From assembly GCA_002716745.1 (NCBI GenBank), contig PBBW01000005.1:48927-90842 (forward strand): a stretch of DNA of 41,916 nucleotides, read 5' to 3'. The number at the start of each line of letters is the position of its first letter. Position 1 is the first letter of the stretch. Below, one piece after another: positions 3,819 through 14,875 of the stretch. The DNA is from Gammaproteobacteria bacterium. Lineage in GTDB: Bacteria; Pseudomonadota; Gammaproteobacteria; Magnimaribacterales; TMED112. Both the position numbers and the translations under genes were made by a program. Below the pieces are notes generated by a model. That model did no database searches. It was not told where the DNA came from and saw only the letters and a program-made list of their open reading frames with translations.

Positions 3819-5375
3819 ATGAAAAAATTTATCTTAATTTTTTTTAGTTGGCTAAGTCTCATGGTGTTTTCTCACGATGCCTGGAAAGCCATAAAATTAT
3901 CCGAAGAAATTGCTCATGCTCCATCAGTTCTTCCAGACAGAGTTGTACTTACATGGAACGATAATCCAGCAACTACTCAGTCAGTTTCTTGGCGGACCGA
4001 TACCTCTGTTATTAATGGCTATGCTCAAGTTGGGCTTGCTAATGCGAGTGGCAGGACAATGAAAACCTCAGAATTGAAAGCAGTAACAACACCATTTAAA
4101 AGTGATATTAACGATGCACATTATCACAATGTAAATTTTACAAACCTTAAGCCTAATACTTTATATGCCTACCGAGTTGGTGATGGCGAGAACTGGACAG
4201 AATATTATCATTTCAAAACCGCAAACCTTAAACCAGAACCATTTAGTTTTATTTACTTTGGAGATGCGCAAAATGAAGTCAAAACTCATTGGTCAAGGGT
4301 TTTTAGAGAGGCGTTTCGTGATGCGCCTAGAGCTGCATTTACCTTACATGCTGGCGATCTTGTAGATGAACATTATATGGATGCTCAGTGGGGTGAATGG
4401 CATCAAGCCCCAGATTGGGTTAACGGAACAATACCTGTCATTGCCACACCTGGAAATCATGAATACCTTGATGATTCTCAACGCAAGAGAATTTGGAAAA
4501 CTAAAAAAGAAAAAGAAGTAAAAGTAAAAATAGATGAATACAAACTACATGCTCCGGGTATATTTAAAATTACTGTGGAGGATGAGCTTGACCAGAGAGG
4601 CACTCTATTCATTAAAGAAAGTGGCCAGATTGAATCCATTGATTCTGGAATAGAATTAATAACTGGTTTTTCTCAAGCTGAATTAAAAGATGCATTAATA
4701 TTGGGAGGAGGTGCTCCTCTTTATGATCGTCTTCAAAACCCAACTGGAACACCAATTTTGAGTACCCATTGGCGCCCGCAATTTTCCTTTCCAATACAAG
4801 ACGTGCCAAAAGAAAGCTTAAAAGAAACGGTTTACTACATTGATTATCAAGGTGTAAGATTTATTTCATTAGATTCTAATACTGAGCTTGAGGCACAAAT
4901 CCCTTGGTTACAAAAAGTACTTGAACAGAACTCCAATAAATGGACAATCGTTACGTTTCATCATCCAATGTATTCACCTGCATCAGATCGTGACAATATT
5001 GAGTTAAGACAAGCTTGGAAGCCACTTTTTGATAAATATAAAGTCGACTTAATATTAAGCGGGCATGACCATACTTATTCTAGAACTGGTCTTGTTGATA
5101 CCAAGAATTTAAAGAATGTTCCGACTGGTTATCAGCAGGCTTATGACCCTAACATTGGAACTGTAAATGTTGTCTCTGTGAGTGGTCCTAAAATGTATGA
5201 AATCACTAAAGGTAAATATGCTAAAACTTTTGCAGAGAATAAACAGCTTTACCAAATAATCGATGTAGAAAACGATGCTCTGAGATATAGGGCATTTACA
5301 GCGATAGGCGAGCTATACGATGAATTTGTCCTCAAGAAAGTTGTTGATAAGCCAAATATTCTGATAGAAAAATAA
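3819..5375 (+). CDS. Secreted purple acid phosphatase-like metallophosphoesterase (FN3/PAP-N plus calcineurin-like domain)
   Basis: Signal peptide; LKPNTLYAYRVGDG (FN3-like); metal motifs GDAQ, GDLVD, GNHE, HHP, GHDH. Confidence 0.88.
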   Translation: MKKFILIFFSWLSLMVFSHDAWKAIKLSEEIAHAPSVLPDRVVLTWNDNPATTQSVSWRTDTSVINGYAQVGLANASGRTMKTSELKAVTTPFKSDINDAHYHNVNFTNLKPNTLYAYRVGDGENWTEYYHFKTANLKPEPFSFIYFGDAQNEVKTHWSRVFREAFRDAPRAAFTLHAGDLVDEHYMDAQWGEWHQAPDWVNGTIPVIATPGNHEYLDDSQRKRIWKTKKEKEVKVKIDEYKLHAPGIFKITVEDELDQRGTLFIKESGQIESIDSGIELITGFSQAELKDALILGGGAPLYDRLQNPTGTPILSTHWRPQFSFPIQDVPKESLKETVYYIDYQGVRFISLDSNTELEAQIPWLQKVLEQNSNKWTIVTFHHPMYSPASDRDNIELRQAWKPLFDKYKVDLILSGHDHTYSRTGLVDTKNLKNVPTGYQQAYDPNIGTVNVVSVSGPKMYEITKGKYAKTFAENKQLYQIIDVENDALRYRAFTAIGELYDEFVLKKVVDKPNILIEK

Positions 5376-5684: not shown

Positions 5685-7429
5685 GCACTCAAGCATTAAC
5701 TTATCTATTTGTTGGAATCACATTTGCTCTTTACATTGGAATTGCATTTTGGAGTAAAGCAAAAGATACGCGTGATTTCTATGTAGCTGGCAAAGGAGTA
5801 AGCCCACTTGCTAATGGTATGGCTACTGCAGCTGATTGGATGTCCGCTGCTTCATTTATTTCAATCGCAGGAATAATTGCTTTTTCAGGTAGAGATGGCT
5901 CCGTTTACTTAATGGGTTGGACGGGAGGTTATGTTTTGCTAGCGCTTTTGCTTGCTCCATATCTAAGAAAATTTGGAAAATATACCGTCCCAGAGTTCAT
6001 AGGCACAAGGTACTACTCCGATCTAGCAAGAATTGTAGCCGTGCTTTGTTTAATTTTTATCTCTTTTACCTATATAGCAGGACAGATGCGCGGCGTCGGG
6101 ATTGTTTTCTCAAGGTTCCTTGAAGTTGATATTAATCTTGGGGTAATCATAGGGATGGTAATAGTTTTCTTCTATGCAGTTATGGGGGGAATGAAAGGTA
6201 TTACTTATACTCAAGTAGCCCAATATTGTGTGTTAATTTTTGCTTATTTAGTTCCTGCAATTTTTATTTCTATTTTAATCACAGGTAATCCTGTTCCACA
6301 GCTTGGTTTTGGAAGCACTGTAAGTGGAAGCTCTGAATACATATTAGATAAATTAGATCGAATTACTGAGGAACTTGGGTTTAATCCATATACTGAGAAT
6401 ACTAAAAGTACATTTGATGTGATCTGTATTACAGCGGCGCTAATGTTTGGAACTGCAGGACTTCCGCATGTAATTGTGAGATTTTTTACAGTACCAAAAG
6501 TTAAAGACGCAAGGAAGTCCGTTGGATATGCTTTAATCTGTATAGCACTTTTATTTACAACCGCTCCTGCTGTAGGTGCATTTGCAAGGGTAAATATTGC
6601 TGACTCCATCCAAGATACAAAATATGTAGAAGCGCCAGAATGGTTTAAAAATTGGGAAAACATAGGTCTAGTTGCTTGGAAAGATAAAAATAATGATGGA
6701 GCAATGCAACTTTATCCAGGAAATGCTTTTGAAGAAATACAGCCTTCCTTTTCAGAAAAAGTGGGGCAGTATGGAGAGAGGGTTGTTACCAACAATATCA
6801 ATGAGGATAGTAAAAATGAACTTTACATTGATAGAGATATTATGGTTCTTGCAAACCCAGAGATTGCTAGCCTGCCACCGTGGGTATTTGCTCTAGTTGC
6901 TGCAGGTGCATTAGCAGCTGCTCTTTCAACTGCAGCAGGATTATTATTAGTAATTTCATCTTCAATTTCACATGATCTTATGAAAAAGACATTCAGACCA
7001 AATATTACAGAGAAACAAGAACTCCTTTATGCAAGAATTGCGGCAAGTGCTGCAATTTTAGTTGCAGGTTATTTTGGCATCAACCCACCAGGATTTGTAG
7101 CTCAAGTTGTTGCTTTGGCATTTGGTCTAGCAGCCTCAACCATATTCCCTGCATTATTAATGGGCATATTTTTTAAAGAGATTAATAAGGAAGGAGCAAT
7201 ACTTGGAATGGTGCTAGGTCTAGTTACGACATTGTCGTACATTATTTATTTTAAGTTTATATTCCCAGAATTAAACAACTCAGAATATTGGTTATTAGGT
7301 ATTTCTCCTGAAGGATTTGGTGTAATTGGGATGCTTGTAAACTTTGCGACTGCCATAATTTGCCTTCAGGTGTTCTCAAAGCCACCTAGCAGTGTGACTA
7401 ATTTGTTAAATTCAATCAGAAAACCCTAG
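5681..7429 (+). CDS. Sodium:solute symporter (ActP/VC_2705-like, probably monocarboxylate uptake)
   Basis: GMATAADWMSAASF, GWTGGY, GGMKGITYTQVAQY, GTAGLPHVIVRFFT, AAALSTAAGLL. Confidence 0.92.
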   Translation: MSTQALTYLFVGITFALYIGIAFWSKAKDTRDFYVAGKGVSPLANGMATAADWMSAASFISIAGIIAFSGRDGSVYLMGWTGGYVLLALLLAPYLRKFGKYTVPEFIGTRYYSDLARIVAVLCLIFISFTYIAGQMRGVGIVFSRFLEVDINLGVIIGMVIVFFYAVMGGMKGITYTQVAQYCVLIFAYLVPAIFISILITGNPVPQLGFGSTVSGSSEYILDKLDRITEELGFNPYTENTKSTFDVICITAALMFGTAGLPHVIVRFFTVPKVKDARKSVGYALICIALLFTTAPAVGAFARVNIADSIQDTKYVEAPEWFKNWENIGLVAWKDKNNDGAMQLYPGNAFEEIQPSFSEKVGQYGERVVTNNINEDSKNELYIDRDIMVLANPEIASLPPWVFALVAAGALAAALSTAAGLLLVISSSISHDLMKKTFRPNITEKQELLYARIAASAAILVAGYFGINPPGFVAQVVALAFGLAASTIFPALLMGIFFKEINKEGAILGMVLGLVTTLSYIIYFKFIFPELNNSEYWLLGISPEGFGVIGMLVNFATAIICLQVFSKPPSSVTNLLNSIRKP

Positions 7430-7458
7430 CTTAAAACATACCTAAGTGCGCTTCATAA

Positions 7459-7486
7459 TTGATTATAATCATAGTTTTGGTATAGT
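7459..7486 (+). promoter_or_regulatory. Putative sigma70 promoter (TTGATT-16 nt-TATAGT, extended TG) overlapped by the perfect palindrome TGATTATAATCA, a possible Fur/Zur-family operator
   Basis: Palindrome 7460-7471; -35 at 7459-7464; TG at 7478-7479; -10 at 7481-7486; ATG 7 nt downstream. Confidence 0.45.
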
Positions 7487-7493
7487 CTGCCTT

Positions 7494-7760
7494 ATGTTTA
7501 ATGCCCAACTAAAACTACTGGTTGCAATTTTCTTTGCTTCAGCCCTTAGCGCAGAGCCGTTGGTACATGATCACCATGATCATGATGAGGCTGTTAAAAT
7601 TGAGTGCCTTGCATGTGAGAATTCTTTTTCATTTGAAATTACTGATACAACTAAAGAAACCTTTAGTCTACCTTTTTCTAATAAAAGCGTATTAATAGAT
7701 CAAAAAATTGAATCAATTGAAGTTCCAATCTCCAATTCTAGAGCGCCTCCTAGAATTTAA
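7494..7760 (+). CDS. Small exported leader protein with His-rich patch, CxxC and C-terminal RAPP arrest motif (DUF2946/CruR/CutF-like)
   Basis: 88 aa from ATG 7494: signal peptide ending ALSA, HDHHDHDE, CLAC, then 41 residues, then RAPP-RI-stop; lies directly upstream of a TonB receptor. Confidence 0.8.
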   Translation: MFNAQLKLLVAIFFASALSAEPLVHDHHDHDEAVKIECLACENSFSFEITDTTKETFSLPFSNKSVLIDQKIESIEVPISNSRAPPRI

Positions 7761-7800
7761 GTTCTTTCACAAAATAATTTAATTTTTTTTAATAGGAGGT
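7745..7800 (+). promoter_or_regulatory. Putative anti-SD/SD pairing controlling translation of the TonB receptor
   Basis: GCCTCCTA (7745-7752, inside the A-P-P-R codons) can pair with TAGGAGGT (7793-7800, the receptor SD): 7 Watson-Crick pairs plus 1 G-U. Confidence 0.55.
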
Positions 7801-7807
7801 AATCAAA

Positions 7808-10111
7808 ATGAAAAAAATATTAACAGTTTTAATTTTTATGGCGACACTCAACTTAGTTGCCCAAGAAGTCGAAGAAGTAGTTGTTGTATCTTCACTTACA
7901 GATGCAAATGGCCAATTAAGTGAAATTGGCGATCCAATTCATGTGGTCAGTGGAGAAGATTTAGACGCATCGGCTACTCAAAGTTTAGGTGAGTCAATTG
8001 ACGAATTACTTGGAGTATCATCTGTAGATTATGGTGCTGCAGTTGGCCAACCTGTTATTCGTGGTTTATTAGATGGTAGAGTCAAGATACTAAGAAATGG
8101 TCTTAGCGTTGCAGACGTAGCAGGTATGGGGGCAGATCACCTAAATGAAGTTGATCTTTTTAATGTTCAACAAATCGAAATTATAAGAGGACCATCATCC
8201 TTGCTTTATTCAAAAGGTTCGATTGGTGGTGTTATAAATATCATTGACAATACTATTGCACAACGGGACTTTGATTCACAAAAAGTTAGTCTTGGTCTTG
8301 AGGCTCAAACTGTAAATGAAGGTGATTCTAAAAATTTTTCTTATGAAAATAATTTTAATGGAATAAATTTCAGCGTTTCTTACAAAGACTCACAATTTGG
8401 TAATTACGAAATACCTAATGGAGCAATCATTCATTCCGAAGATGAGCATGACGATCATGGCGATGAAGATCATGGCGATGAGCACGACGAGCACGAAGAA
8501 GATATGTCTGTTTTAGCTAACTCAGATTTTGGATCTACCACTTCAAGAATTGGTGTTTCAAGAACTGGTGACTGGGGCTACTTTGGAATTTCACTTGAGG
8601 ATCAAGAAACTGTATATGGCATTCCTTTTCATGGTGATGAGCACGGTGATGAGCACGGTGATGAGCACGGTGATGAACATGGTGATGAGCACGGTGATGA
8701 GCATGAAGGAGAAAGAATTTACGCTTTTACTGACTCTCAAGCAGTGAATTTAAGAGGTGGATTCATTGTCAATAATAGTATGTTGAATGGCATTGATTAT
8801 TTTTACAGAGATACAGACTATTCATTTTCTGAGCAGCATGCCGAAGAAGAAGGTCATGAAGAAGAAGGTCATGAAGACGAAGGTCATGACGATCATGGGC
8901 ATGAAGAAGGACCAACAGTGTTTAATAATCAAGCACAAGAATTTGGTGCCATTTTTGATTTTGCTGTTTCTGGAAACGTAAACTCATCTAAAGTTATGGT
9001 GAATTATCTTGCAATGGATGAATCAATAGTAGGGCACGAAGCTTTTATGGATCCTGTTGAAAGTGAAAGTTTTAACATTGGATATTATGTTAGCAGAAAC
9101 CTTCCTGGGGACTTTGACTTAGATTTAGGTTTTAGATATGACCAAATAAATAGAAAAGGTTCAGTAACTGAAGAACATCATGAGGAAGAAGGTCATGACG
9201 ATCACGGTGACGAAGATCATGGCGATGAGCATGATGAAGACCATGAAGAAATGGAAGTAGAATACTTTGATAAAGACTTTGATGAATTAAGTTTTTCAGC
9301 AAGCCTCAATAAGCAATTAAATGATTCTATGGTGGTTAATTTTAGCTTTTCTAGTGTTGCAAACGCACCATCAAGTACAGCAATGGCTATGAATGGACCG
9401 CACTTAGCTCGTGGCAGATTTGAAACTGGTGATGTAAACCTTTCAGCGGAGAGAGCTTCCAACTTTGAAGGCACATTGTTTTATAATGATGGAGATTATT
9501 TTGGGCAATTTACTTTATTTCAAAATAGTATTGCTGATTATATTTATCTTCAAGACGAGTTAGAGCATCACGACGAGGATCATGGTGATGAAGATCATGA
9601 TGAGCATGGTGATGAAGATCATGATGAGCATGGTGATGAGCACGGAAATTTAATCCATGCCGATTTTCTTCAACAAGATGCTGATTTTAATGGTTACGAA
9701 TTTGAATTTGGTAGAAGGTTTAAACTTGCGTCGGGAGAGCTAGAGGTAAGTTATGGTAGAGATGTAGTGAATGGTGAGTTTTCTAACGGAGAAAATGTTC
9801 CAAGAATTGTCCCTGCAAGAAATCTTTACAATTTGTCATATGTTGGTGGGGATCTAAGTTTAAATCTTACCCTTAAGGATGTAGAAGCTCAAAAAGACAT
9901 TGGTGATGGTGAAACAGCCACTGATGGATATAAGATGCTTAATCTTTTAGCAATGAGAAATTTTAATCTTTCATCAGGCAATAATCTGAAAGTATCAGTA
10001 TTTGCTAATAATATTCTCGATGAGGTTGGAAGAAATCATGCATCATATGTTAAAGATGAGGTCCCACTTCCGGGATTGAATTTTGGTGTCAAATTTAGAC
10101 TAGATTTTTAA
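7808..10111 (+). CDS. TonB-dependent receptor, ZnuD-like (Zn or other divalent metal uptake), with five His/Asp/Glu-rich loops
   Basis: Strong SD AGGAGGT; signal peptide; plug motifs QPVIRGL, IEIIRGPSSLLY..GSIGGVIN; YGIPFH; GPHLA; RNHASYVKD; terminal Phe. Confidence 0.88.
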   Translation: MKKILTVLIFMATLNLVAQEVEEVVVVSSLTDANGQLSEIGDPIHVVSGEDLDASATQSLGESIDELLGVSSVDYGAAVGQPVIRGLLDGRVKILRNGLSVADVAGMGADHLNEVDLFNVQQIEIIRGPSSLLYSKGSIGGVINIIDNTIAQRDFDSQKVSLGLEAQTVNEGDSKNFSYENNFNGINFSVSYKDSQFGNYEIPNGAIIHSEDEHDDHGDEDHGDEHDEHEEDMSVLANSDFGSTTSRIGVSRTGDWGYFGISLEDQETVYGIPFHGDEHGDEHGDEHGDEHGDEHGDEHEGERIYAFTDSQAVNLRGGFIVNNSMLNGIDYFYRDTDYSFSEQHAEEEGHEEEGHEDEGHDDHGHEEGPTVFNNQAQEFGAIFDFAVSGNVNSSKVMVNYLAMDESIVGHEAFMDPVESESFNIGYYVSRNLPGDFDLDLGFRYDQINRKGSVTEEHHEEEGHDDHGDEDHGDEHDEDHEEMEVEYFDKDFDELSFSASLNKQLNDSMVVNFSFSSVANAPSSTAMAMNGPHLARGRFETGDVNLSAERASNFEGTLFYNDGDYFGQFTLFQNSIADYIYLQDELEHHDEDHGDEDHDEHGDEDHDEHGDEHGNLIHADFLQQDADFNGYEFEFGRRFKLASGELEVSYGRDVVNGEFSNGENVPRIVPARNLYNLSYVGGDLSLNLTLKDVEAQKDIGDGETATDGYKMLNLLAMRNFNLSSGNNLKVSVFANNILDEVGRNHASYVKDEVPLPGLNFGVKFRLDF
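8630..8701 (+). repeat. In-frame 12-bp tandem repeat CAYGGTGATGAR x6 encoding (HGDE)6
   Basis: Read directly from the sequence, inside the TonB receptor. Confidence 0.95.
9581..9640 (+). repeat. In-frame 24-bp tandem repeat CATGGTGATGAAGATCATGATGAG x2 plus a partial third copy (HGDEDHDE)
   Basis: Read directly from the sequence. Confidence 0.9.
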
Positions 10112-10205: not shown

Positions 10206-12788
10206 ATGAAAGTGAACTATTTAAAAACCATACTTTTTGCATTCTTTTTTTATGGTTCTTTCGTTTCAACTGCTGATAAAGATATAGAAGAAGTACTGGT
10301 TACAGGTTCTTATATTAAAGATGCGGTAGATTCCATAGGCCCCCTAGAAGTCTTGTCAGAAGACGATTTTATATCACTCAATATAACGAATTTAGCTGAG
10401 ATTAGTAAATACTTAAATATTGCATCAGGGTCACATTTTCAATCAAATACTTTGGGCGGTGTTGATCAAGGCATGTCATCAATTACATTGAGAGGCTTAG
10501 ATCATGCATCTACTCTGTTACTTATTAATTCAAAACGACATACTTTTGCTGGCACTCCTTCCAATGAGGGCGAAGGGTATATAGATTTAAATATTATTCC
10601 TGAAATCTCTTTTAAGAGAATTGAGATTTTAAAGGAAGGTGCAACTTCGTTATATGGATCGGATGCAGTGGCAGGAGTTGTAAATTTTATAACACATAAA
10701 GATTTTAAGGGTTTGAAGATTCGTTTTGGAGACCAAACAACAACAAACTATAATCAAAAAGACCAAAATATAGGTCTGCTTTATGGACAAGAGTTAAATA
10801 ATTGGGATTTAGTTTTTGCTGCAAACCTACTTGATAGGGCACCATTATCTGCTTCAGAAATCCCAAATATTGCAGAGTTAGCATTAAGCGGTCTTGGAAA
10901 CACATTTATTACTACTGCAGCTGATGAAATAACAGAAGGAAGATACGAAGGTGTCTATGAAGCAAATCAAATAGTTCCTGATCCAAATTGTGTTGAGAAT
11001 GGTGGTATTTTGCAGGGGTTTTGTAGATTTCTTTATGGGACAAGATTCAATATAGTTAATACTGAAGACCACTCAAAATTTTATTTGAATCTGAGCAATG
11101 ATATTCATAACCTTTCATTAATTGCCTCAAATGTCAGAGTAATCGATAATCCTCAGTCACCCTCTTATCCTGCGTTACCCTACTTAACAAGACTAATTCA
11201 ACCAGGTGAAGGATCCTCACCATTCAATACACCAGTAAAATGGCGAGGCCGGCCATTAGGCTCACAATATGCTTCCCCATTTTCACCAAAAGACATAAAA
11301 CAATTTCACTTAAATTATTCGTATTTTACAAAAATAGAAAATATTGATTTTGAATTTTCTTTGTCTACAAGTGAGCATCAGAACAAACACAACAGACCAG
11401 ATATTATTGATTCAAGATTTCAAAGCGCAATGCAAGGCAGTGGCGGCCCATCACAGAACGAAACATGGAATATTTTTGAACCAGAGCTAAATAGTCAATC
11501 ATTAATTGATTATGTAAGAGGAGCCGAAATTTCAAATAAAACTGGAAGCTTATCTGTCTTTGATGTAATTGGGAGAACAGAACTATTTAATTTTGATTTT
11601 GCATTTGGCTCACAAATTAGTGATGAAAAATTAGATATAAGCTATAACGAGATAGCTCGTGCTGAATTTGATCGTGATGGAAAAATAATTAAAACAGCAG
11701 ATCTTTTTTTCCTTGGCGGTGGAAAAAATGTTTCTACAAATAGAAACAAAGTAGCATTCTTTTTAGAGGGAAGGACAAATTTAGTAGAAGTCATTGATAT
11801 AAGTTTGTCAGGCAGATATGAAGAGTCAAAAAATTACTCGTCTTTTGATCCAAAGGTTTCTATAAAATCAACATTTAATGAAAATATTTTTTTAAGGGGT
11901 TCATTTGGTTCTTCTTTTTCGATGCCATCAATGGCTCAAATGTTTTCAAGTAATATAAATCTTGGAAGTGTAAGAGATATTGAAGGTAACATCTTTGTTC
12001 GACAGGCTCAGATTGGCAACCCTGATCTCAAGCCCTCCACAGCTGACAATTCAAATTTTGGAGTTGTTCTTGATTATAAAAACAGAGTTTTTACGATCGA
12101 CTACTGGTTAATAGATTATAAAAATAGAGTTGAATCGCAAAGCTCACAGGCATTGCTTTTAAGCGATCCGTTTGGACCAAGTATTACTAGAAATGACGAA
12201 GGGGAATTAATTGGAGTTACTACAACTTACTTTAACGAAACGACAACAAAACTTTCTGGTTTTGATTTTTCATACGACGAAAATTTAATTCTGGAAGACT
12301 ATGGGAAGATTAATCTCTCTGTAAAAGGTACAAGTTTTATTGAATTTTTAACTCCTGAAATTGGAGCAAATCCGTCTTCAAATCTAGTTAATAGGGTAGG
12401 AAGGTTTAATTTTGATGCGAATACACACTCTATACCAAAGTACAGAATCAATTCATTTCTAAATTGGAATTATGATAACTATGAGGTTGCCTTAAATACA
12501 AGATTTATTGATGGCTATATAAATGAAAGAAGTATTCCTGAGAGTGCATTGAATCAAGGCTATAAGAATAAAATTGATAATTTCTTGGTTTTTGATTTAA
12601 CTTTTAGACAAAACTTCCCACAATTTTTTGACAATATGAATTTTAAAACTTCATTCTCAATAATTAATATTCTTGATGAGCAGCCACCAAAAATCTACGA
12701 TGCGCCTGATTTTAGTTTTGACACAAGAGTTCATGACCCTAGAGGGAGATTAATTAATATTCAATTTGAACTCGCCCCAAAGAATTAG
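10206..12788 (+). CDS. TonB-dependent receptor
   Basis: TonB box EEVLVTGS; plug ITLRGL...TLLLINSKR; IEILKEGATSLYGSDAVAGVVNFIT; GNPDLKP; SIINILDEQPP; DPRGR. Confidence 0.92.
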   Translation: MKVNYLKTILFAFFFYGSFVSTADKDIEEVLVTGSYIKDAVDSIGPLEVLSEDDFISLNITNLAEISKYLNIASGSHFQSNTLGGVDQGMSSITLRGLDHASTLLLINSKRHTFAGTPSNEGEGYIDLNIIPEISFKRIEILKEGATSLYGSDAVAGVVNFITHKDFKGLKIRFGDQTTTNYNQKDQNIGLLYGQELNNWDLVFAANLLDRAPLSASEIPNIAELALSGLGNTFITTAADEITEGRYEGVYEANQIVPDPNCVENGGILQGFCRFLYGTRFNIVNTEDHSKFYLNLSNDIHNLSLIASNVRVIDNPQSPSYPALPYLTRLIQPGEGSSPFNTPVKWRGRPLGSQYASPFSPKDIKQFHLNYSYFTKIENIDFEFSLSTSEHQNKHNRPDIIDSRFQSAMQGSGGPSQNETWNIFEPELNSQSLIDYVRGAEISNKTGSLSVFDVIGRTELFNFDFAFGSQISDEKLDISYNEIARAEFDRDGKIIKTADLFFLGGGKNVSTNRNKVAFFLEGRTNLVEVIDISLSGRYEESKNYSSFDPKVSIKSTFNENIFLRGSFGSSFSMPSMAQMFSSNINLGSVRDIEGNIFVRQAQIGNPDLKPSTADNSNFGVVLDYKNRVFTIDYWLIDYKNRVESQSSQALLLSDPFGPSITRNDEGELIGVTTTYFNETTTKLSGFDFSYDENLILEDYGKINLSVKGTSFIEFLTPEIGANPSSNLVNRVGRFNFDANTHSIPKYRINSFLNWNYDNYEVALNTRFIDGYINERSIPESALNQGYKNKIDNFLVFDLTFRQNFPQFFDNMNFKTSFSIINILDEQPPKIYDAPDFSFDTRVHDPRGRLINIQFELAPKN

Positions 12789-12804
12789 GGATATAATATC
12801 TAAC

Positions 12805-13623
12805 ATGAAATTCGTTCTAGTTTTATTTATCCTAATACTTTATATAAAACCTACTAAGGCAAATGAAAAAGACCATGAATTGTTAATGGCAACATTATTT
12901 GTTCAATCGTCGGCTGAATTTTACGCAAATTCAAAATCCTTATACAGTTCTGCTCAACAAAATCTTCTAGACGTGCTTGAAAACAAAAATCATACTGCTG
13001 CCCTTGAGCAAATGGGAAATTTTCAAGACAAACCACCAGCAATTATTTTAGATGTCGATCAAACAGTCTTAGATAATAGCGCCTATCAAGCAAGGCTAAT
13101 AAAAAATAATTCTTCTTATCCTAATGGTTGGGTAAGTTGGGCAAAAGAGGAGAAAGCTGAATTTCTTCCAGGCGCACTAGAATTTATAAAATTTGCTCAA
13201 TCAAAAGGCGTAGAAATTTTCTTCGTAACGAACAGAGTTATAGAAATTGAAAATGCAACCCTTAGTAATTATGAAAAGCTAGGTCTAAAACTTTCATCAC
13301 GAGTTGATCATATATTATCTAGAGGAGAGAATGGATGGGATTCAAATAAGACTTCAAGGAGGGAACTAGTTGCAAAAGATTACAGAATATTAATGATGTT
13401 TGGCGATAACTTAGGAGATTTTGTTGATATTAAAGATAATTTATTAACACCTCAGAAAAGAGTAGAAATCACAAAAAAATATGATGATTTTTGGGGTATT
13501 TCTTGGTTTATGTTTTCAAACCCAATGTATGGAGCATGGGAGGGAGCTATTATCGATTTTGATTATTCAGTTCCTAGAAATAAAAAATTAGAGATGAAAG
13601 AATTATCTCTTGATGCAAAATAA
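12805..13623 (+). CDS. e(P4)-family 5'-nucleotidase / class C acid phosphatase (HAD)
   Basis: AIILDVDQTVLDNSAY, FVTNR, GDNLGDF, NPMYGAWE; N-terminal signal without a lipobox Cys. ATG 12805 preferred. Confidence 0.88.
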   Translation: MKFVLVLFILILYIKPTKANEKDHELLMATLFVQSSAEFYANSKSLYSSAQQNLLDVLENKNHTAALEQMGNFQDKPPAIILDVDQTVLDNSAYQARLIKNNSSYPNGWVSWAKEEKAEFLPGALEFIKFAQSKGVEIFFVTNRVIEIENATLSNYEKLGLKLSSRVDHILSRGENGWDSNKTSRRELVAKDYRILMMFGDNLGDFVDIKDNLLTPQKRVEITKKYDDFWGISWFMFSNPMYGAWEGAIIDFDYSVPRNKKLEMKELSLDAK

Positions 13624-14875
13624 AAAATTTCCAAAAAATATGACATCTTTTTTTTCAAAAAATACATTTAACTCTGGTTTATTTTTCTTCTTTGTCTTAT
13701 TTTCTATATTCGTTTTAAGGCCTTTTAGAAATACAATTGCTGCAAATATTGGAACTGCAGATTTGCCAATCTATCTAATATTGATTGTCTTTTTGATGTT
13801 AGTTGCGAACACAGTTTACTCTTTAGTAGTATCTAGAATTAGTCTTAAAAATCTAGTTCAGTCAATCTATGGATTTTTTATTATTTGCCTTGGGGCATTT
13901 CTTTTAATCTATTCGTATTTCCCTGAAAACAATGCAATAAAATCAACATTTTATGTGTGGTATAACATATTTAATTTTTTTATAGTTGCAATTTTTTGGG
14001 CCATGACTGTCAATTCTTACGATATAGAGGATGGTAAAAAATTCTTTGGGATAATAAGCGCTTTCGGTTCCTTAGGCGCCTCTTTTGGCGGACTACTTGT
14101 CGATAACTATTTATATGACAAAGAAAACCTGTCTCTAATGATTACTGTTGCATCTCTATTGCTAGCAATTTACTTTTCATCAAGGGTTCAAAGAAAGAAA
14201 GTAAATTTAAATTTTTCTTCTGAAACAAATTTATCTAGTTCTTTTGAGCAGTTTTCTCAAATAAAAAGTAACCCACTTATAAGGAAGTTTATTTTATATG
14301 CTTTTGTATGGACGTCTTTATCAACTGCCTTATGGTTTTTCCAGCTAGAGATTATAAATAGTTACACTAACGACTCAGATATAAAAACGAAAATCTTTGG
14401 AAGGGCAGACTCTATTGTTCCTTTGCTGACATTATCTATTCAGCTTCTACTGACCTCCTCGATACTTAGATCGAAATACTTTGGTATTAAATTCGTTCTT
14501 TCAATTTACGGAGTCATTTTTAGTTGCGCATTCTTAGCTATTTCCGGTTATTTCTCTGAATATTTGTTGGCATCATCTGGAGTTTTAGTTTTTCTTGTTT
14601 TGCAGGGGGTAATAAGACCTTTCGAATACGGTCTAAATAAACCAGCTAGGGAAGCGATTTATACCACTCTAACATCAAAAGAAAAATATAAATCTACGGT
14701 TTTTATAGATACTTTCACAAATAGGTTTGGTGATGCCACTGGTGGTCTTCTTTTTAACCTTCTATTGACACTAGGATTTGTTATGTACACAGCTCCGTTA
14801 GCATTAATTCCTTTGTGTTTATTTCTTGTATATCTTGGATTATCGATATCAGAAAGTGTCAAGAGTGTTAAATAA
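13613..14875 (+). CDS. Npt1/Npt2 (TLC)-like nucleotide transporter, MFS-type membrane protein
   Basis: VLRPFRN, FYVWYNIFN....FW, KKFFGIISAFGSLGASFG, YGLNKPARE.IYT....EKYKS..FIDT...RFGD. Start could be 13613 or 13640. Confidence 0.75.
   Translation: MQNKKFPKNMTSFFSKNTFNSGLFFFFVLFSIFVLRPFRNTIAANIGTADLPIYLILIVFLMLVANTVYSLVVSRISLKNLVQSIYGFFIICLGAFLLIYSYFPENNAIKSTFYVWYNIFNFFIVAIFWAMTVNSYDIEDGKKFFGIISAFGSLGASFGGLLVDNYLYDKENLSLMITVASLLLAIYFSSRVQRKKVNLNFSSETNLSSSFEQFSQIKSNPLIRKFILYAFVWTSLSTALWFFQLEIINSYTNDSDIKTKIFGRADSIVPLLTLSIQLLLTSSILRSKYFGIKFVLSIYGVIFSCAFLAISGYFSEYLLASSGVLVFLVLQGVIRPFEYGLNKPAREAIYTTLTSKEKYKSTVFIDTFTNRFGDATGGLLFNLLLTLGFVMYTAPLALIPLCLFLVYLGLSISESVKSVK

What the first reader, a model, noticed from the sequence alone, without database searches (positions are those of the whole stretch)
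7494..10111. Candidate metal-sensing ribosome-arrest leader (signal peptide + His patch + CxxC + RAPP) controlling a ZnuD-like receptor
Seen: an 88-aa ORF with a signal peptide, HDHHDHDE, CLAC and, 41 residues later, RAPP two codons before the stop. It ends 47 nt before a His-loop TonB receptor. Established: RAPP/RAGP motifs stall ribosomes (SecM, ApdA/ApdP), and Bordetella CruR (DUF2946; CxxC plus RAPP) regulates a downstream TonB transporter in response to copper. Inference: the spacing places the His/Cys site just outside the exit tunnel during stalling. The His patch and the ZnuD-like target point to a Zn (or Ni/Co) responsive variant, which would be a transcription-factor-free metal sensor suited to a streamlined genome.
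Basis: partly seen in the sequence, partly recalled or inferred. Interest (0 to 1): 0.88.

Follow-up and report, generated by a model that had tools for sequence, protein, structure and literature searches.

The report
Conserved RAPP leader before zinc-type receptor
A tiny secreted peptide gene ending in the ribosome-stalling motif RAPP sits just ahead of a zinc-receptor-like outer-membrane transporter in SAR86 and related marine bacteria, and probably acts as a built-in metal sensor of a kind so far shown only for copper.

Summary
Window 7494-7760 (+) encodes an 88-aa peptide with a signal-peptide-like N-terminus, HDHHDHDE, CLAC, a 41-residue spacer and RAPP two codons before the stop. It ends 47 nt before a 767-aa TonB receptor with five His/Asp/Glu loops.

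The pair is strongly conserved. A profile finds the leader in 86 of 103 genomes of the order. A leader precedes 74 of 80 receptor homologues from named SAR86, Porticoccaceae/SAR92 and Luminiphilus records.

One Cys and R-x-P-P are invariant. The Cys-to-RAPP distance is fixed at 40-43 residues although the spacer sequence drifts, and the RAPP codons vary synonymously. RAPP occurs once in the whole 1.12-Mb genome.

The receptor's best sequence and fold match is ZnuD.

The leader fails Pfam DUF2946 (CruR/CutF), giving only sub-threshold hits. It differs from CruR in spacing, intergenic length and receptor type.

Best reading: a CruR/CutF-like arrest leader coupling a metal signal, probably zinc, to receptor expression. 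No Zur, ZnuA or ZIP was found. Stalling, the metal and the output route (Rho or SD unmasking) remain untested.

It is a new variant of a known kind.

The parts
7459..7486 (+). Promoter-like site TTGATT-16 nt-TATAGT with TG before the -10. It ends 7 nt before the leader ATG. A perfect 12-bp palindrome (7460-7471) overlaps the -35.
   Evidence: 9 of 12 match, but 2 sites were found where shuffles give 2.4, so this is weak; the exact palindrome is unique in the genome. It is not conserved in relatives.
7494..7760 (+). Leader ORF of 88 aa, including the stop codon.
   Evidence: The family is conserved.
7494..7553 (+). Signal-peptide-like N-terminus (residues 1-20; ALSA before EP).
   Evidence: Read from the sequence. 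A heuristic finds an N-terminal hydrophobic run in 103 of 111 family members and K/R in the first 15 residues in 107 of 111. No signal-peptide predictor was available.
7566..7589 (+). His/acidic patch HDHHDHDE (residues 25-32).
   Evidence: H25 is conserved in at least 90% of sequences. The mean is 2.9 His between the hydrophobic region and the Cys, and only 1 sequence has none, among the 103 members with a hydrophobic run.
7605..7616 (+). CLAC (residues 38-41). C38 is invariant in the family; C41 is not.
   Evidence: C38 invariant. (CxxC in 85 of 110).
7617..7739 (+). 41-residue spacer with fixed length, drifting sequence and C>G base skew.
   Evidence: Spacer is 40-42 residues in 106 of 110 representatives and 40-43 in all 70 named loci scored. 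C-G is +0.07 here against -0.044 in genome coding windows.
7740..7751 (+). RAPP codons AGA GCG CCT CCT. The expected stall has Pro85 (7746-7748) in the P site and Pro86 in the A site.
   Evidence: codons vary synonymously among loci. The stall register is taken from the CruR toeprint in PMC12992588 (passage read); it was not tested here.
7761..7807 (+). 47-nt A/T-rich intergenic spacer holding the receptor's Shine-Dalgarno AGGAGG (7794-7799).
   Evidence: The SD is predicted paired with the GCGCCUCCU of the RAPP codons (probability 0.98). No Rfam family matches 7200-8100.
7808..10111 (+). ZnuD-like TonB-dependent receptor, 767 aa.
8429..8509 (+). His/Asp/Glu-rich loop (residues 208-234), between strands 3 and 4.
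   Evidence: strands. The extracellular placement follows the standard topology of TonB receptors (inference).
8624..8719 (+). HGDE-repeat loop (residues 273-304), between strands 5 and 6. It is homologous in position to ZnuD loop-3 cluster 1.
   Evidence: The ZnuD cluster is described in a PMC4557270 figure legend.
8831..8917 (+). His/Glu-rich loop (residues 342-370).
9164..9262 (+). His/Asp/Glu-rich loop (residues 453-485).
9551..9652 (+). His/Asp/Glu-rich loop (residues 582-615).

Best explanation
The 88-aa ORF is a cis-acting leader of the RAPP arrest-peptide kind, like CruR and CutF. It is not a protein that works after release.

Inferred mechanism: the ribosome translating the leader stalls with R-A-P in the P site and the second Pro codon in the A site, four codons before the end of the message's first cistron. 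At that moment about 40 C-terminal residues fill the exit tunnel. The invariant Cys (44-47 residues from the peptidyl-transferase centre) and the His patch (54-60 residues away) have just emerged. The signal peptide can already engage the export machinery.

Occupancy of the His/Cys site by a divalent metal then changes how long the stall lasts, either by folding or by altering the pull of export.

While the ribosome sits on the RAPP codons it does two things. It covers the C-rich, G-poor 3' part of the leader that could load Rho. It also holds apart the GCGCCUCCU segment that would otherwise pair with the receptor's AGGAGG. Either effect permits expression of the downstream ZnuD-like receptor; release shuts it down. 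For an uptake receptor the logical sign is metal-replete = release = off, as in CruR.

The metal is most likely zinc (about 0.45 absolute). The other candidates are copper, cobalt/nickel and iron.

Shown here: the anatomy, the conservation pattern, the uniqueness of RAPP, the ZnuD-likeness of the receptor, and the presence of Rho.

Inferred: the stall, the ligand, the sign and the output route.
For: (1) Conservation pattern typical of a nascent-chain ruler.
- C38, R83, P85 and P86 are invariant in 33 sequences and in 111.
- The spacer is 40-42 residues in 106 of 110 representatives and 40-43 in all 70 named loci scored. The spacer columns show no conserved residue.

(2) The R, A and P codons vary synonymously among 30 loci (aga/agg/cga; gcn; cct/cca/ccg/ccc). 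Selection therefore acts on the peptide.

(3) RAPP occurs once in all six-frame ORFs of at least 40 aa in the genome. This matches the published exclusion of RAPP from proteomes (abstract of PMC12992588).

(4) The linkage is tight.
- The leader is found in 86 of 103 genomes of the order and 17 of 19 genera.
- It lies upstream of 74 of 80 receptor homologues, including Porticoccaceae/SAR92/HTCC2207 and Luminiphilus.
- It precedes ZnuD-like receptors in 3 of 7 weak hits outside the order.
- Downstream neighbours of the pair vary.

(5) Precedent.
- CruR's RAPP is needed for receptor expression, its CXXC for copper control, and its spacing matters (PMC9426467 section 9).
- CruR arrest was shown in a PURE system (passage in PMC12992588).
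- The CutF stall melts a stem-loop over the next gene's ribosome-binding site (abstracts of PMC9973294 and of the 2025 preprint 10.1101/2025.02.05.636593).

(6) Output routes.
- Rho is present.
- The last 130 nt of the leader have C-G +0.071 against -0.044 (sd 0.058) in genome coding windows. 25 of 29 loci lie above the background 90th percentile.
- The SD is predicted paired with mean probability 0.88 in 29 loci, with a mean of 0.69 falling on a partner inside the stall footprint.
- In the window's own locus the real codons pair better than 300 of 300 synonymous recodings.

(7) Zinc.
- The receptor's best NCBIfam model is ZnuD (E 3.5e-46).
- Its best PDB sequence match is ZnuD (6e-32, against 5e-9 for the next).
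- Its best fold matches are the four ZnuD chains.
- The ZnuD loop-3 His/Asp cluster aligns with the HGDE repeat.
- The receptor has no Cys.
- The only Fur-family protein is Fur itself, and no ZnuA or ZIP was found.
- A MerC-family membrane protein follows the receptor in two relatives and exists elsewhere in this genome.
Against: - No experiment shows a stall, a metal response or any effect on the receptor.
- The leader does not reach Pfam DUF2946. There are only sub-threshold hits, and hhalign aligns just the RAPP tail (probability 17%). Homology to the proven systems is therefore at best remote.
- The second Cys is missing in 25 of 110 representatives.
- Some relatives carry QAPP, RDPP, RASP, RTPP or TAPP, although R is critical in CruR.
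- SD masking is not clearly selected. 71 other strong-SD genes of the genome already show mean pairing of 0.68. Across 29 loci the recoding test gives mean z -0.45, with 11 loci below -1 and 4 above +1. The Pro wobble bases follow ordinary codon usage.
- The C>G skew could be a by-product of the spacer's amino-acid make-up, and its background came from one genome only.
- The intergenic spacer (33-52 nt in SAR86) is far shorter than CruR's 162 nt.
- The receptor scores 158 bits against ZnuD's 950-bit cut-off. Fold neighbours also include iron, haem and copper receptors.
- The genome is 88.5% complete, so missing Zur/ZnuA is not proof of absence.
- 4 receptor homologues with enough upstream sequence have no leader (L069, L074, L107, L110).
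Confidence: 0.63

Rival explanations
1. It is simply a compact CruR orthologue. The mechanism is the same but the ligand is copper, and the receptor imports copper for haem-copper oxidases.
For: - All proven members of this kind (CruR, CutF) respond to copper (PMC9426467; PMC9973294).
- DUF2946 is the most frequent, though sub-threshold, Pfam hit among relatives: 8 of 111 and 14 of 73.
- One protein (G091) scores with both DUF2946 (23.4 bits) and the leader profile (25.9 bits).
- Cys plus His can bind copper.
- OprC copper transporters are among the receptor's fold neighbours.
Against: - The receptor is nearest to ZnuD by sequence and fold.
- The receptor has no Cys and has His/Asp/Glu loops.
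- No PepSY_TM-type gene or other recognisable copper gene lies beside it in the window or in 12 relatives. The CruR paper lists such neighbours (section 10).
- The second Cys of CxxC, essential for copper control in CruR, is dispensable in a quarter of the family.
- The spacing is 40-43 residues, not 45.
Confidence: 0.17
2. The stall is constitutive or reports on export rather than on metal. The leader is a fixed translational or transcriptional enhancer, or a SecM-like monitor of secretion, that keeps an unusually strong Shine-Dalgarno site usable.
For: - RAPP leaders were first found monitoring Sec/YidC pathways (abstract of PMC12992588).
- A signal-peptide-like N-terminus is found in 103 of 111 members.
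- A GGAG-type Shine-Dalgarno is present in all 30 loci, whereas only 71 such sites precede long ORFs in this genome.
- RAPP codons are inherently complementary to GGAGG; recoded duplexes still average about -8.5 kcal/mol.
Against: - An invariant Cys and a near-invariant His at a fixed distance from RAPP have no role in this model.
- The downstream gene is a metal-type receptor, not an export factor.
Confidence: 0.1
3. The peptide works after release, as a small periplasmic metal-binding partner of the receptor (a chaperone or metallophore-like peptide). RAPP is then incidental or only slows translation.
For: - Signal peptide, His patch and Cys are conserved.
- The gene is always next to the receptor.
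Against: - The 40-residue segment after the Cys has fixed length but no conserved residues, which is unlike a folded domain.
- The strongest conservation is the C-terminal RAPP, which the rest of the proteome avoids.
- CruR was not detected as a stable protein (PMC9426467 discussion).
Confidence: 0.07

Closest known systems
CruR (Bp2923, Bordetella pertussis; Pfam DUF2946) upstream of the TonB transporter BfrG/CrtA
   Same: - A small first gene with an export signal, a Cys motif, a length-constrained spacer and RAPP a few residues before the stop.
- It lies directly upstream, on the same strand, of a TonB-dependent receptor.
- There is a C>G tract in the leader, and Rho is present.
   Different: - It does not reach the DUF2946 model.
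- It is 88 aa, with RAPP at residues 83-86; in CruR RAPP is at 139-142.
- The spacer is 41 residues (family 40-43), not 45 +/- 1-2.
- There is a His patch before the Cys, and the second Cys is not invariant.
- The intergenic spacer is 47 nt, not 162 nt.
- The receptor is ZnuD-like, not CrtA or OprC type.
- No PepSY_TM gene follows.
- The ligand is unknown.
CutF (Rhodobacter capsulatus) and the 'CutF-like' set of Ozturk et al. 2023
   Same: - It meets their operational filters: under 150 aa, PP within the last 15 residues, an N-terminal signal peptide, and a downstream same-strand gene within 1000 nt.
- It has a short intergenic region and a predicted hairpin over the next gene's ribosome-binding site.
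- That paper already notes clusters with Cys, His or both, and TonB neighbours.
   Different: - CutF turns a detoxifying oxidase on when copper rises (stall enhanced). An uptake receptor needs the opposite sign.
- CutF's stall motif is described as a proline-rich PPP repeat needing EF-P (preprint section titles), not RAPP.
- I could not check whether this SAR86 family is in their list because the supplements are closed.
RAPP/RAGP arrest peptides SecM, ApdA, ApdP and the RAPP uORF survey (EMBO J 2025, PMC12992588)
   Same: - A C-terminal RAPP in a small secretory protein upstream of the regulated gene.
- RAPP is otherwise excluded from the proteome.
- The survey reports RAPP uORFs with signal peptides upstream of TonB receptors across Gram-negative bacteria.
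   Different: Those of known function monitor protein export. This one carries a conserved His/Cys site and precedes a metal receptor.
ZnuD (Neisseria meningitidis zinc receptor; PDB 4RDR/4RDT/4RVW)
   Same: - It is the best sequence and fold match of the downstream receptor.
- The plug motif ...DH... is conserved.
- The His/Asp/Glu cluster in loop 3 aligns.
   Different: - Identity is only about 19% in the fold alignment, and the score is 158 bits against a 950-bit family cut-off.
- There are five greatly expanded His/Asp/Glu loops.
- No Zur or ZnuABC was found in the genome.
- ZnuD is known (recalled, not checked here) as Zur-regulated, without a leader peptide.

Membership tests
RAPP-type translation arrest peptides | R-A-P-P (or RGPP/RAGP) close to the C-terminus of a small ORF | tested here: met
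   RAPP is at residues 83-86 of 88. Of 110 full-length representatives, 106 have RAPP, 3 RGPP and 1 RTPP.
RAPP-type translation arrest peptides | Ribosome stalls at the motif (peptidyl-tRNA, toeprint) | not testable with these tools
   This needs in vitro translation.
RAPP-type translation arrest peptides | Motif otherwise avoided in the proteome | tested here: met
   There is 1 RAPP in all six-frame ORFs of at least 40 aa, and 0 in the 934 ORFs of at least 150 aa.
RAPP-type translation arrest peptides | Encoded directly upstream, on the same strand, of the gene it controls | tested here: met
   The gap is 47 nt here and 33-52 nt in 29 related loci. 74 of 80 receptor homologues have a leader. 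Control itself was not tested.
CruR / Pfam DUF2946 (PF11162) | Match to the family HMM at the gathering score (23.7 bits) | tested here: not met
   No hit at E<=1 for the window protein. 0 of 33 at E<=10. Sub-threshold hits in 8 of 111 (best E 0.0048) and 14 of 73 (best E 9.4e-4). No PF11162 match in the genome at E<=10.
CruR / Pfam DUF2946 (PF11162) | Invariant CXXC | tested here: inconclusive
   The window protein has CLAC. In the family the first Cys is invariant, but CxxC is present in only 85 of 110.
CruR / Pfam DUF2946 (PF11162) | 45 residues (+/- 1-2) between CXXC and RAPP | tested here: not met
   The spacer is 41 residues here, 40-42 in 106 of 110 and 40-43 in named loci. Four DUF2946-type proteins fetched here give 43-47.
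CruR / Pfam DUF2946 (PF11162) | Long structured intergenic region with Rho-dependent termination | tested here: inconclusive
   The spacer is 47 nt and A/T-rich. Rho is present. C>G skew is seen in 25 of 29 leaders. Termination was not tested.
CutF-like proteins (operational definition of PMC9973294) | Under 150 aa; PP within the last 15 residues; N-terminal signal peptide; same-strand downstream gene within 1000 nt | tested here: met
   The signal peptide was judged by a heuristic only.
CutF-like proteins (operational definition of PMC9973294) | Stem-loop shielding the downstream ribosome-binding site, opened by the stalled ribosome | tested here: inconclusive
   SD pairing probability is 0.99 here and averages 0.88 over 29 loci, against a background of 0.68. 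The recoding test is significant for this locus but not family-wide.
ZnuD zinc receptors (NCBIfam NF038289) | HMM score at or above 950 bits | tested here: not met
   158 bits, although it is the best-scoring model.
ZnuD zinc receptors (NCBIfam NF038289) | Closest solved structure and loop-3 His/Asp/Glu cluster | tested here: met
   phmmer against 4rdr gives 6e-32. The top four Foldseek hits are ZnuD, from an AlphaFold model of modest quality (mean pLDDT 55.7). The cluster aligns.
ZnuD zinc receptors (NCBIfam NF038289) | Transports zinc | not testable with these tools
   No assay is available.

The most novel reading that the evidence does not exclude
This would be the first zinc-responsive nascent-peptide sensor. 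In SAR86 and SAR92-type bacteria it has taken over the job of Zur.

While the ribosome is parked on RAPP, the leader is threaded co-translationally through SecYEG. Its His patch then samples periplasmic Zn(II), and the invariant Cys sits at the channel/ribosome junction.

A streamlined cell would thus read the metal that its own His-loop receptor has just imported, and would shut the receptor off without any transcription factor.
Probability: 0.25. Interest if true: 0.8.

Novelty: new variant of a known kind. Interest (0 to 1): 0.55.

Why it matters
SAR86 is among the most abundant heterotrophs of the surface ocean, and how such minimal genomes regulate trace-metal uptake is poorly known.

If this leader senses zinc or another non-copper metal, it extends arrest-peptide metal sensing beyond copper. 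It would explain how a genome in which only Fur was found controls a zinc-type receptor. It would also provide a compact, portable sensor module of 88 codons plus 47 nt.

The same module occurs in the named SAR92-clade strain HTCC2207 (record L063). By my recollection, not checked here, that strain is cultured, which would make the question testable at the bench.

If the ligand is copper after all, this is a routine extension of CruR.

Tried and rejected
- **Known family by HMM.** Pfam and NCBIfam give nothing for the leader. The ESM Atlas gives only unnamed clusters: 29 of 30 hits have no common Pfam family.
- **hhalign against four DUF2946-type proteins.** It aligned only the RAPP tail. That alignment was small, and one row was misaligned.
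- **Known RNA element.** No Rfam match at E<=1 in 7200-8100. No terminator-like site in 7300-8000.
- **Fur or Zur box.** The 12-bp palindrome at 7460-7471 is unique in the genome but is not conserved upstream of other leaders. It is not among the 32 sites within 4 mismatches of a Fur-box consensus. I dropped it as a regulator site.
- **Conserved anti-SD selection.** The Pro wobble bases in 30 loci are 14 cct, 10 cca, 5 ccg and 1 ccc at the first Pro. This is ordinary usage, and the recoding test is mixed.
- **Functional neighbours.** Genes after the receptor vary: a second receptor, phosphatases, RNase, a methylase, LpxC, a desaturase, a photolyase. None names the metal.
- **The ~415-aa proteins** behind related leaders in other gammaproteobacteria have no Pfam family at threshold.
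- **RNA runs (Logan contigs only).**
  - One contig of run X3 (954 nt, 32 differences) lies across 7532-8485, covering leader and receptor.
  - Contigs of X1, X2 and X4 begin at 7795-7811, and nothing covers 7134-7484.
  - Contigs cannot show transcript ends or prove transcription, so I draw nothing from the gaps. The bridge gives only a weak hint of co-transcription.
- **Literature.** Searches found no paper linking a CruR/CutF-like or RAPP leader to zinc or ZnuD. Search 60 looked instead for SAR86, TonB receptors, histidine-rich loops and zinc, and its listing showed none either.
  - The supplementary tables of PMC9426467, PMC9973294 and PMC12992588, which list thousands of such proteins, were closed and may already contain this family.
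- **Sequences left out.**
  - A1 omitted L013 and L017 because they contain N/X.
  - skipped L013 for the same reason.
  - A5 holds 73 of the 74 leaders; L134 contains X.
  - In some searches the Cys used for the spacer was the one giving a distance nearest 41. This favours a narrow range, but it is the alignment's invariant Cys.

Full report
**What is there**

On the + strand an ATG at 7494 opens an 88-codon frame that ends at TAA 7758-7760. The peptide has these parts:
- a lysine-containing start, a hydrophobic core and ALSA before EP (residues 1-20);
- HDHHDHDE (residues 25-32);
- CLAC (residues 38-41);
- 41 further residues;
- RAPP (residues 83-86), then R, I and the stop.

Forty-seven A/T-rich bases follow. 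They contain AGGAGG (7794-7799) 8 nt before the ATG of a 767-aa protein (7808-10111) with TonB Plug and barrel domains. No Shine-Dalgarno sequence precedes the leader's own ATG. A -10-like TATAGT ends 7 nt before it, but the promoter scan is no better than shuffles.

**The receptor**

- Its best NCBIfam model is the zinc receptor ZnuD (E 3.5e-46). At 158 bits it is far under the 950-bit cut-off.
- Its best solved relative by sequence is ZnuD 4RDR (6e-32). The next is 5e-9.
- An AlphaFold model from 13 homologues is of modest quality (mean pLDDT 55.7). The barrel strands score about 70-85 and the plug is poor.
- The four best Foldseek matches of that model are ZnuD chains. Iron, haem and copper receptors follow.
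- The protein has 40 His. Of these, 34 lie in five H/D/E/G-rich segments, and there is no Cys.
- The five segments fall between strands 3-4, 5-6, 7-8, 11-12 and 15-16 of the model. By the standard topology of these barrels, those are extracellular loops (inference).
- The second segment (an HGDE repeat) aligns with ZnuD's loop-3 cluster HSHEYDDCHAD. The ZnuD paper describes that cluster as a peripheral metal site (figure legend, PMC4557270).

**Is the leader real?**

- A single-sequence search of 61 related genomes gave 30 loci. All 30 hold a small ORF ending in RAPP (28) or RDPP (2) plus 1-4 residues. In 29 of them a receptor start with a GGAG-type Shine-Dalgarno follows 33-52 nt later. For the thirtieth, L012, one search shows the SD and ATG.
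- In an alignment of 33 sequences only C38, R83, P85 and P86 are invariant. The 41-residue stretch between them has no conserved column.
- The codons of R, A and both P differ synonymously among loci, so the peptide is what is kept, not the RNA.
- A profile search of 1.84 billion cluster representatives found 175 at E<=0.001, nearly all 85-110 aa.
  - Of the 150 listed, 110 end in R-x-PP: 106 RAPP, 3 RGPP and 1 RTPP.
  - The other 40 are mostly cut or chimeric fragments, plus 3 QAPP, 1 TAPP and 1 RATP.
  - The Cys-to-R distance is 40-42 in 106 of 110, and CxxC is present in 85 of 110.
- In the window's genome (1.12 Mb, GC 33.6%), RAPP occurs only in this ORF among all six-frame ORFs of at least 40 aa.

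**Distribution**

- The profile finds one copy in 86 of 103 genomes of the order that are at least 85% complete, in 17 of 19 genera.
- In an even sample of 401 genomes of the class there are 10 hits. Three belong to the order, including the window's own genome. The other seven are weak (E 1e-5 to 1e-3).
- Three of those seven leaders precede ZnuD-like receptors. Four precede about 415-aa outer-membrane-like proteins of no known family.
- Searching named genomes with the receptor gave 80 loci, labelled SAR86, Porticoccaceae, SAR92, HTCC2207, Luminiphilus and others.
  - 74 have an upstream leader: 67 RAPP, 6 QAPP and 1 RASP.
  - 2 have too little upstream sequence.
  - 4 have none.
  - The spacer is 40-43 in all 70 scored.
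  - The intergenic gap is longer in Porticoccaceae (49-140 nt).
- The window itself is from a SAR86-type genome, judged from the titles of its closest named relatives.

**Relation to CruR and CutF**

CruR (DUF2946) of Bordetella pertussis heads an operon with a TonB transporter.
- Its RAPP is required for expression.
- Its CXXC is required for copper control.
- The 45-residue spacing tolerates +/-2 but not +5.
- Rho terminates transcription when the stall is relieved.
- Its signal peptide was dispensable (PMC9426467, sections 9-11 read).

CruR arrest with the two Pro codons in the P and A sites was shown in a PURE system. RAPP uORFs with signal peptides upstream of TonB receptors were reported as widespread (passages of PMC12992588).

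CutF of Rhodobacter senses periplasmic copper during co-translational export, and its stall opens a stem-loop over the next gene's ribosome-binding site. A set of 5,334 'CutF-like' proteins falls into clusters with Cys, His or both. TonB neighbours are common, and the His-only clusters lie next to Ni/Co genes (PMC9973294, abstract and sections 10-12; preprint 10.1101/2025.02.05.636593, abstract).

The present leader meets the CutF-like operational definition but not the DUF2946 model:
- no hit for the window protein;
- 0 of 33 at E<=10;
- sub-threshold hits in 8 of 111 and 14 of 73 relatives, where DUF2946 is the commonest family;
- one outside protein scoring weakly with both profiles.

I read this as a remote, unrecognised branch of the same superfamily. 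Convergence on SP-Cys-ruler-RAPP cannot be excluded.

**How the stall could act**

Rho is encoded. The last 130 nt of the leaders are C-rich and G-poor. Mean C-G is +0.071 against -0.044 (sd 0.058) in 3,346 coding windows of this genome, and 25 of 29 loci lie above the 90th percentile. CruR's rut region has the same character.

Independently, the receptor's Shine-Dalgarno is predicted to pair, mostly with the RAPP codons. Mean pairing probability is 0.88 over 29 loci, of which 0.69 falls on a partner inside a footprint of +/-15 nt around the P site.

These are not strong tests:
- The 71 other strong-SD genes of the genome already average 0.68.
- Synonymous recoding shows a significant excess of pairing in this locus (-14.3 against -8.7 kcal/mol, 0 of 300 recodings as good) and in a few others. 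It does not show this across the family (mean z -0.45).
- Any GCN-CCN-CCN is partly complementary to GGAGG, so some masking comes free with RAPP.

I therefore leave both routes open. Both give stall = receptor on.

**Which metal?**

For zinc:
- the ZnuD-like receptor, with His/Asp/Glu and no Cys;
- Glu-flanked Cys plus a His patch in the leader;
- the only Fur-family protein scores as Fur proper (159.8 bits, cut-off 146);
- ZnuA and ZIP were not found (genome 88.5% complete);
- a MerC-family membrane protein directly follows the receptor in two relatives and exists elsewhere in this genome. MerC proteins are known for mercury; zinc belongs to the same group of metals (my own inference).

Against a firm call:
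- every proven member of this kind senses copper;
- the receptor's more distant fold neighbours carry iron, haem and copper;
- nothing here measures binding.

My split is zinc about 0.45, copper about 0.2, cobalt/nickel about 0.15, iron about 0.1, and the rest non-metal or none.

**Expression**

Contigs from marine RNA libraries of two studies cover the receptor. One 954-nt contig from a related strain runs from codon 13 of the leader into the receptor. Its differences at the RAPP region are an Arg-synonymous change and R87K. Contigs cannot prove a single transcript or give its ends.

**Verdict**

Its most likely function is that of a CruR/CutF-type arrest leader for a ZnuD-like receptor.

The kind is known. 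The variant is not found in print in the searches made (supplements closed).

Noticed in passing
window 10206-14875 and 3819-5375; relatives L037, L044: A second TonB receptor (860 aa) follows the His-loop receptor. It does so here and in 7 of 12 relatives examined, in two of them after the MerC-like gene. After it come an e(P4)-type acid phosphatase and a weak MFS-like protein. In two relatives an alkaline phosphatase lies between them. A purple acid phosphatase lies upstream. Together these look like a phosphorus-scavenging cluster beside the metal module.
   Followed up: partly
L038 7089-7490 (-), the equivalent 134-aa ORF in L039, and G000 C2:53013-53348: A 134-aa protein directly follows the His-loop receptor in two relatives. 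The one scanned (L038) is MerC-family (E 7.8e-25). The same family is encoded elsewhere in the window's genome. It is a candidate inner-membrane partner for the imported metal.
   Followed up: partly
window 7481-7496: The leader has no Shine-Dalgarno sequence, and a TG-extended -10-like TATAGT ends 7 nt before its ATG. Similar -10-like hexamers lie 6-10 nt before the ATG in several relatives (by eye). The leader may be translated from a leaderless or nearly leaderless mRNA.
   Followed up: no
window 8644-8681 and about 9581: RNA-library contigs of related strains carry in-frame length differences inside the His-rich loops: 36 nt skipped in runs X1 and X4, and 24 nt left out in X3. The loops also differ greatly in length among the 13 aligned receptors. 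The repeat number is polymorphic.
   Followed up: no
L104, L113, L115, L123, L132, L064; L006, L013; L062: Some lineages have QAPP (6 named loci, 5 of them SAR86), RDPP (2 loci) or RASP (1 locus) in place of RAPP. Since the Arg is critical in CruR, these may stall differently or not at all.
   Followed up: no
L050, L052, L053, L054: Related RAPP leaders in other gammaproteobacteria precede outer-membrane-like proteins of about 411-421 aa. The three scanned (behind L050, L052 and L054) have no Pfam family at threshold. This is an uncharacterised second target class.
   Followed up: partly
L086, L102: Two receptor loci sit in records labelled Hyphomicrobiales and Candidatus Poseidoniales (an archaeon). 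L086 carries a typical SAR86-type leader. These are probably mis-binned or mislabelled contigs.
   Followed up: no
Porticoccaceae-type leaders (e.g. L060, L064, L075, L137) and L010, L056, L104: In some lineages the Cys motif reads CxxCH, the haem-attachment pattern of c-type cytochromes. Most SAR86 leaders read CxxCE(N). Weak Pfam noise hits to cytochrome families probably reflect this.
   Followed up: no
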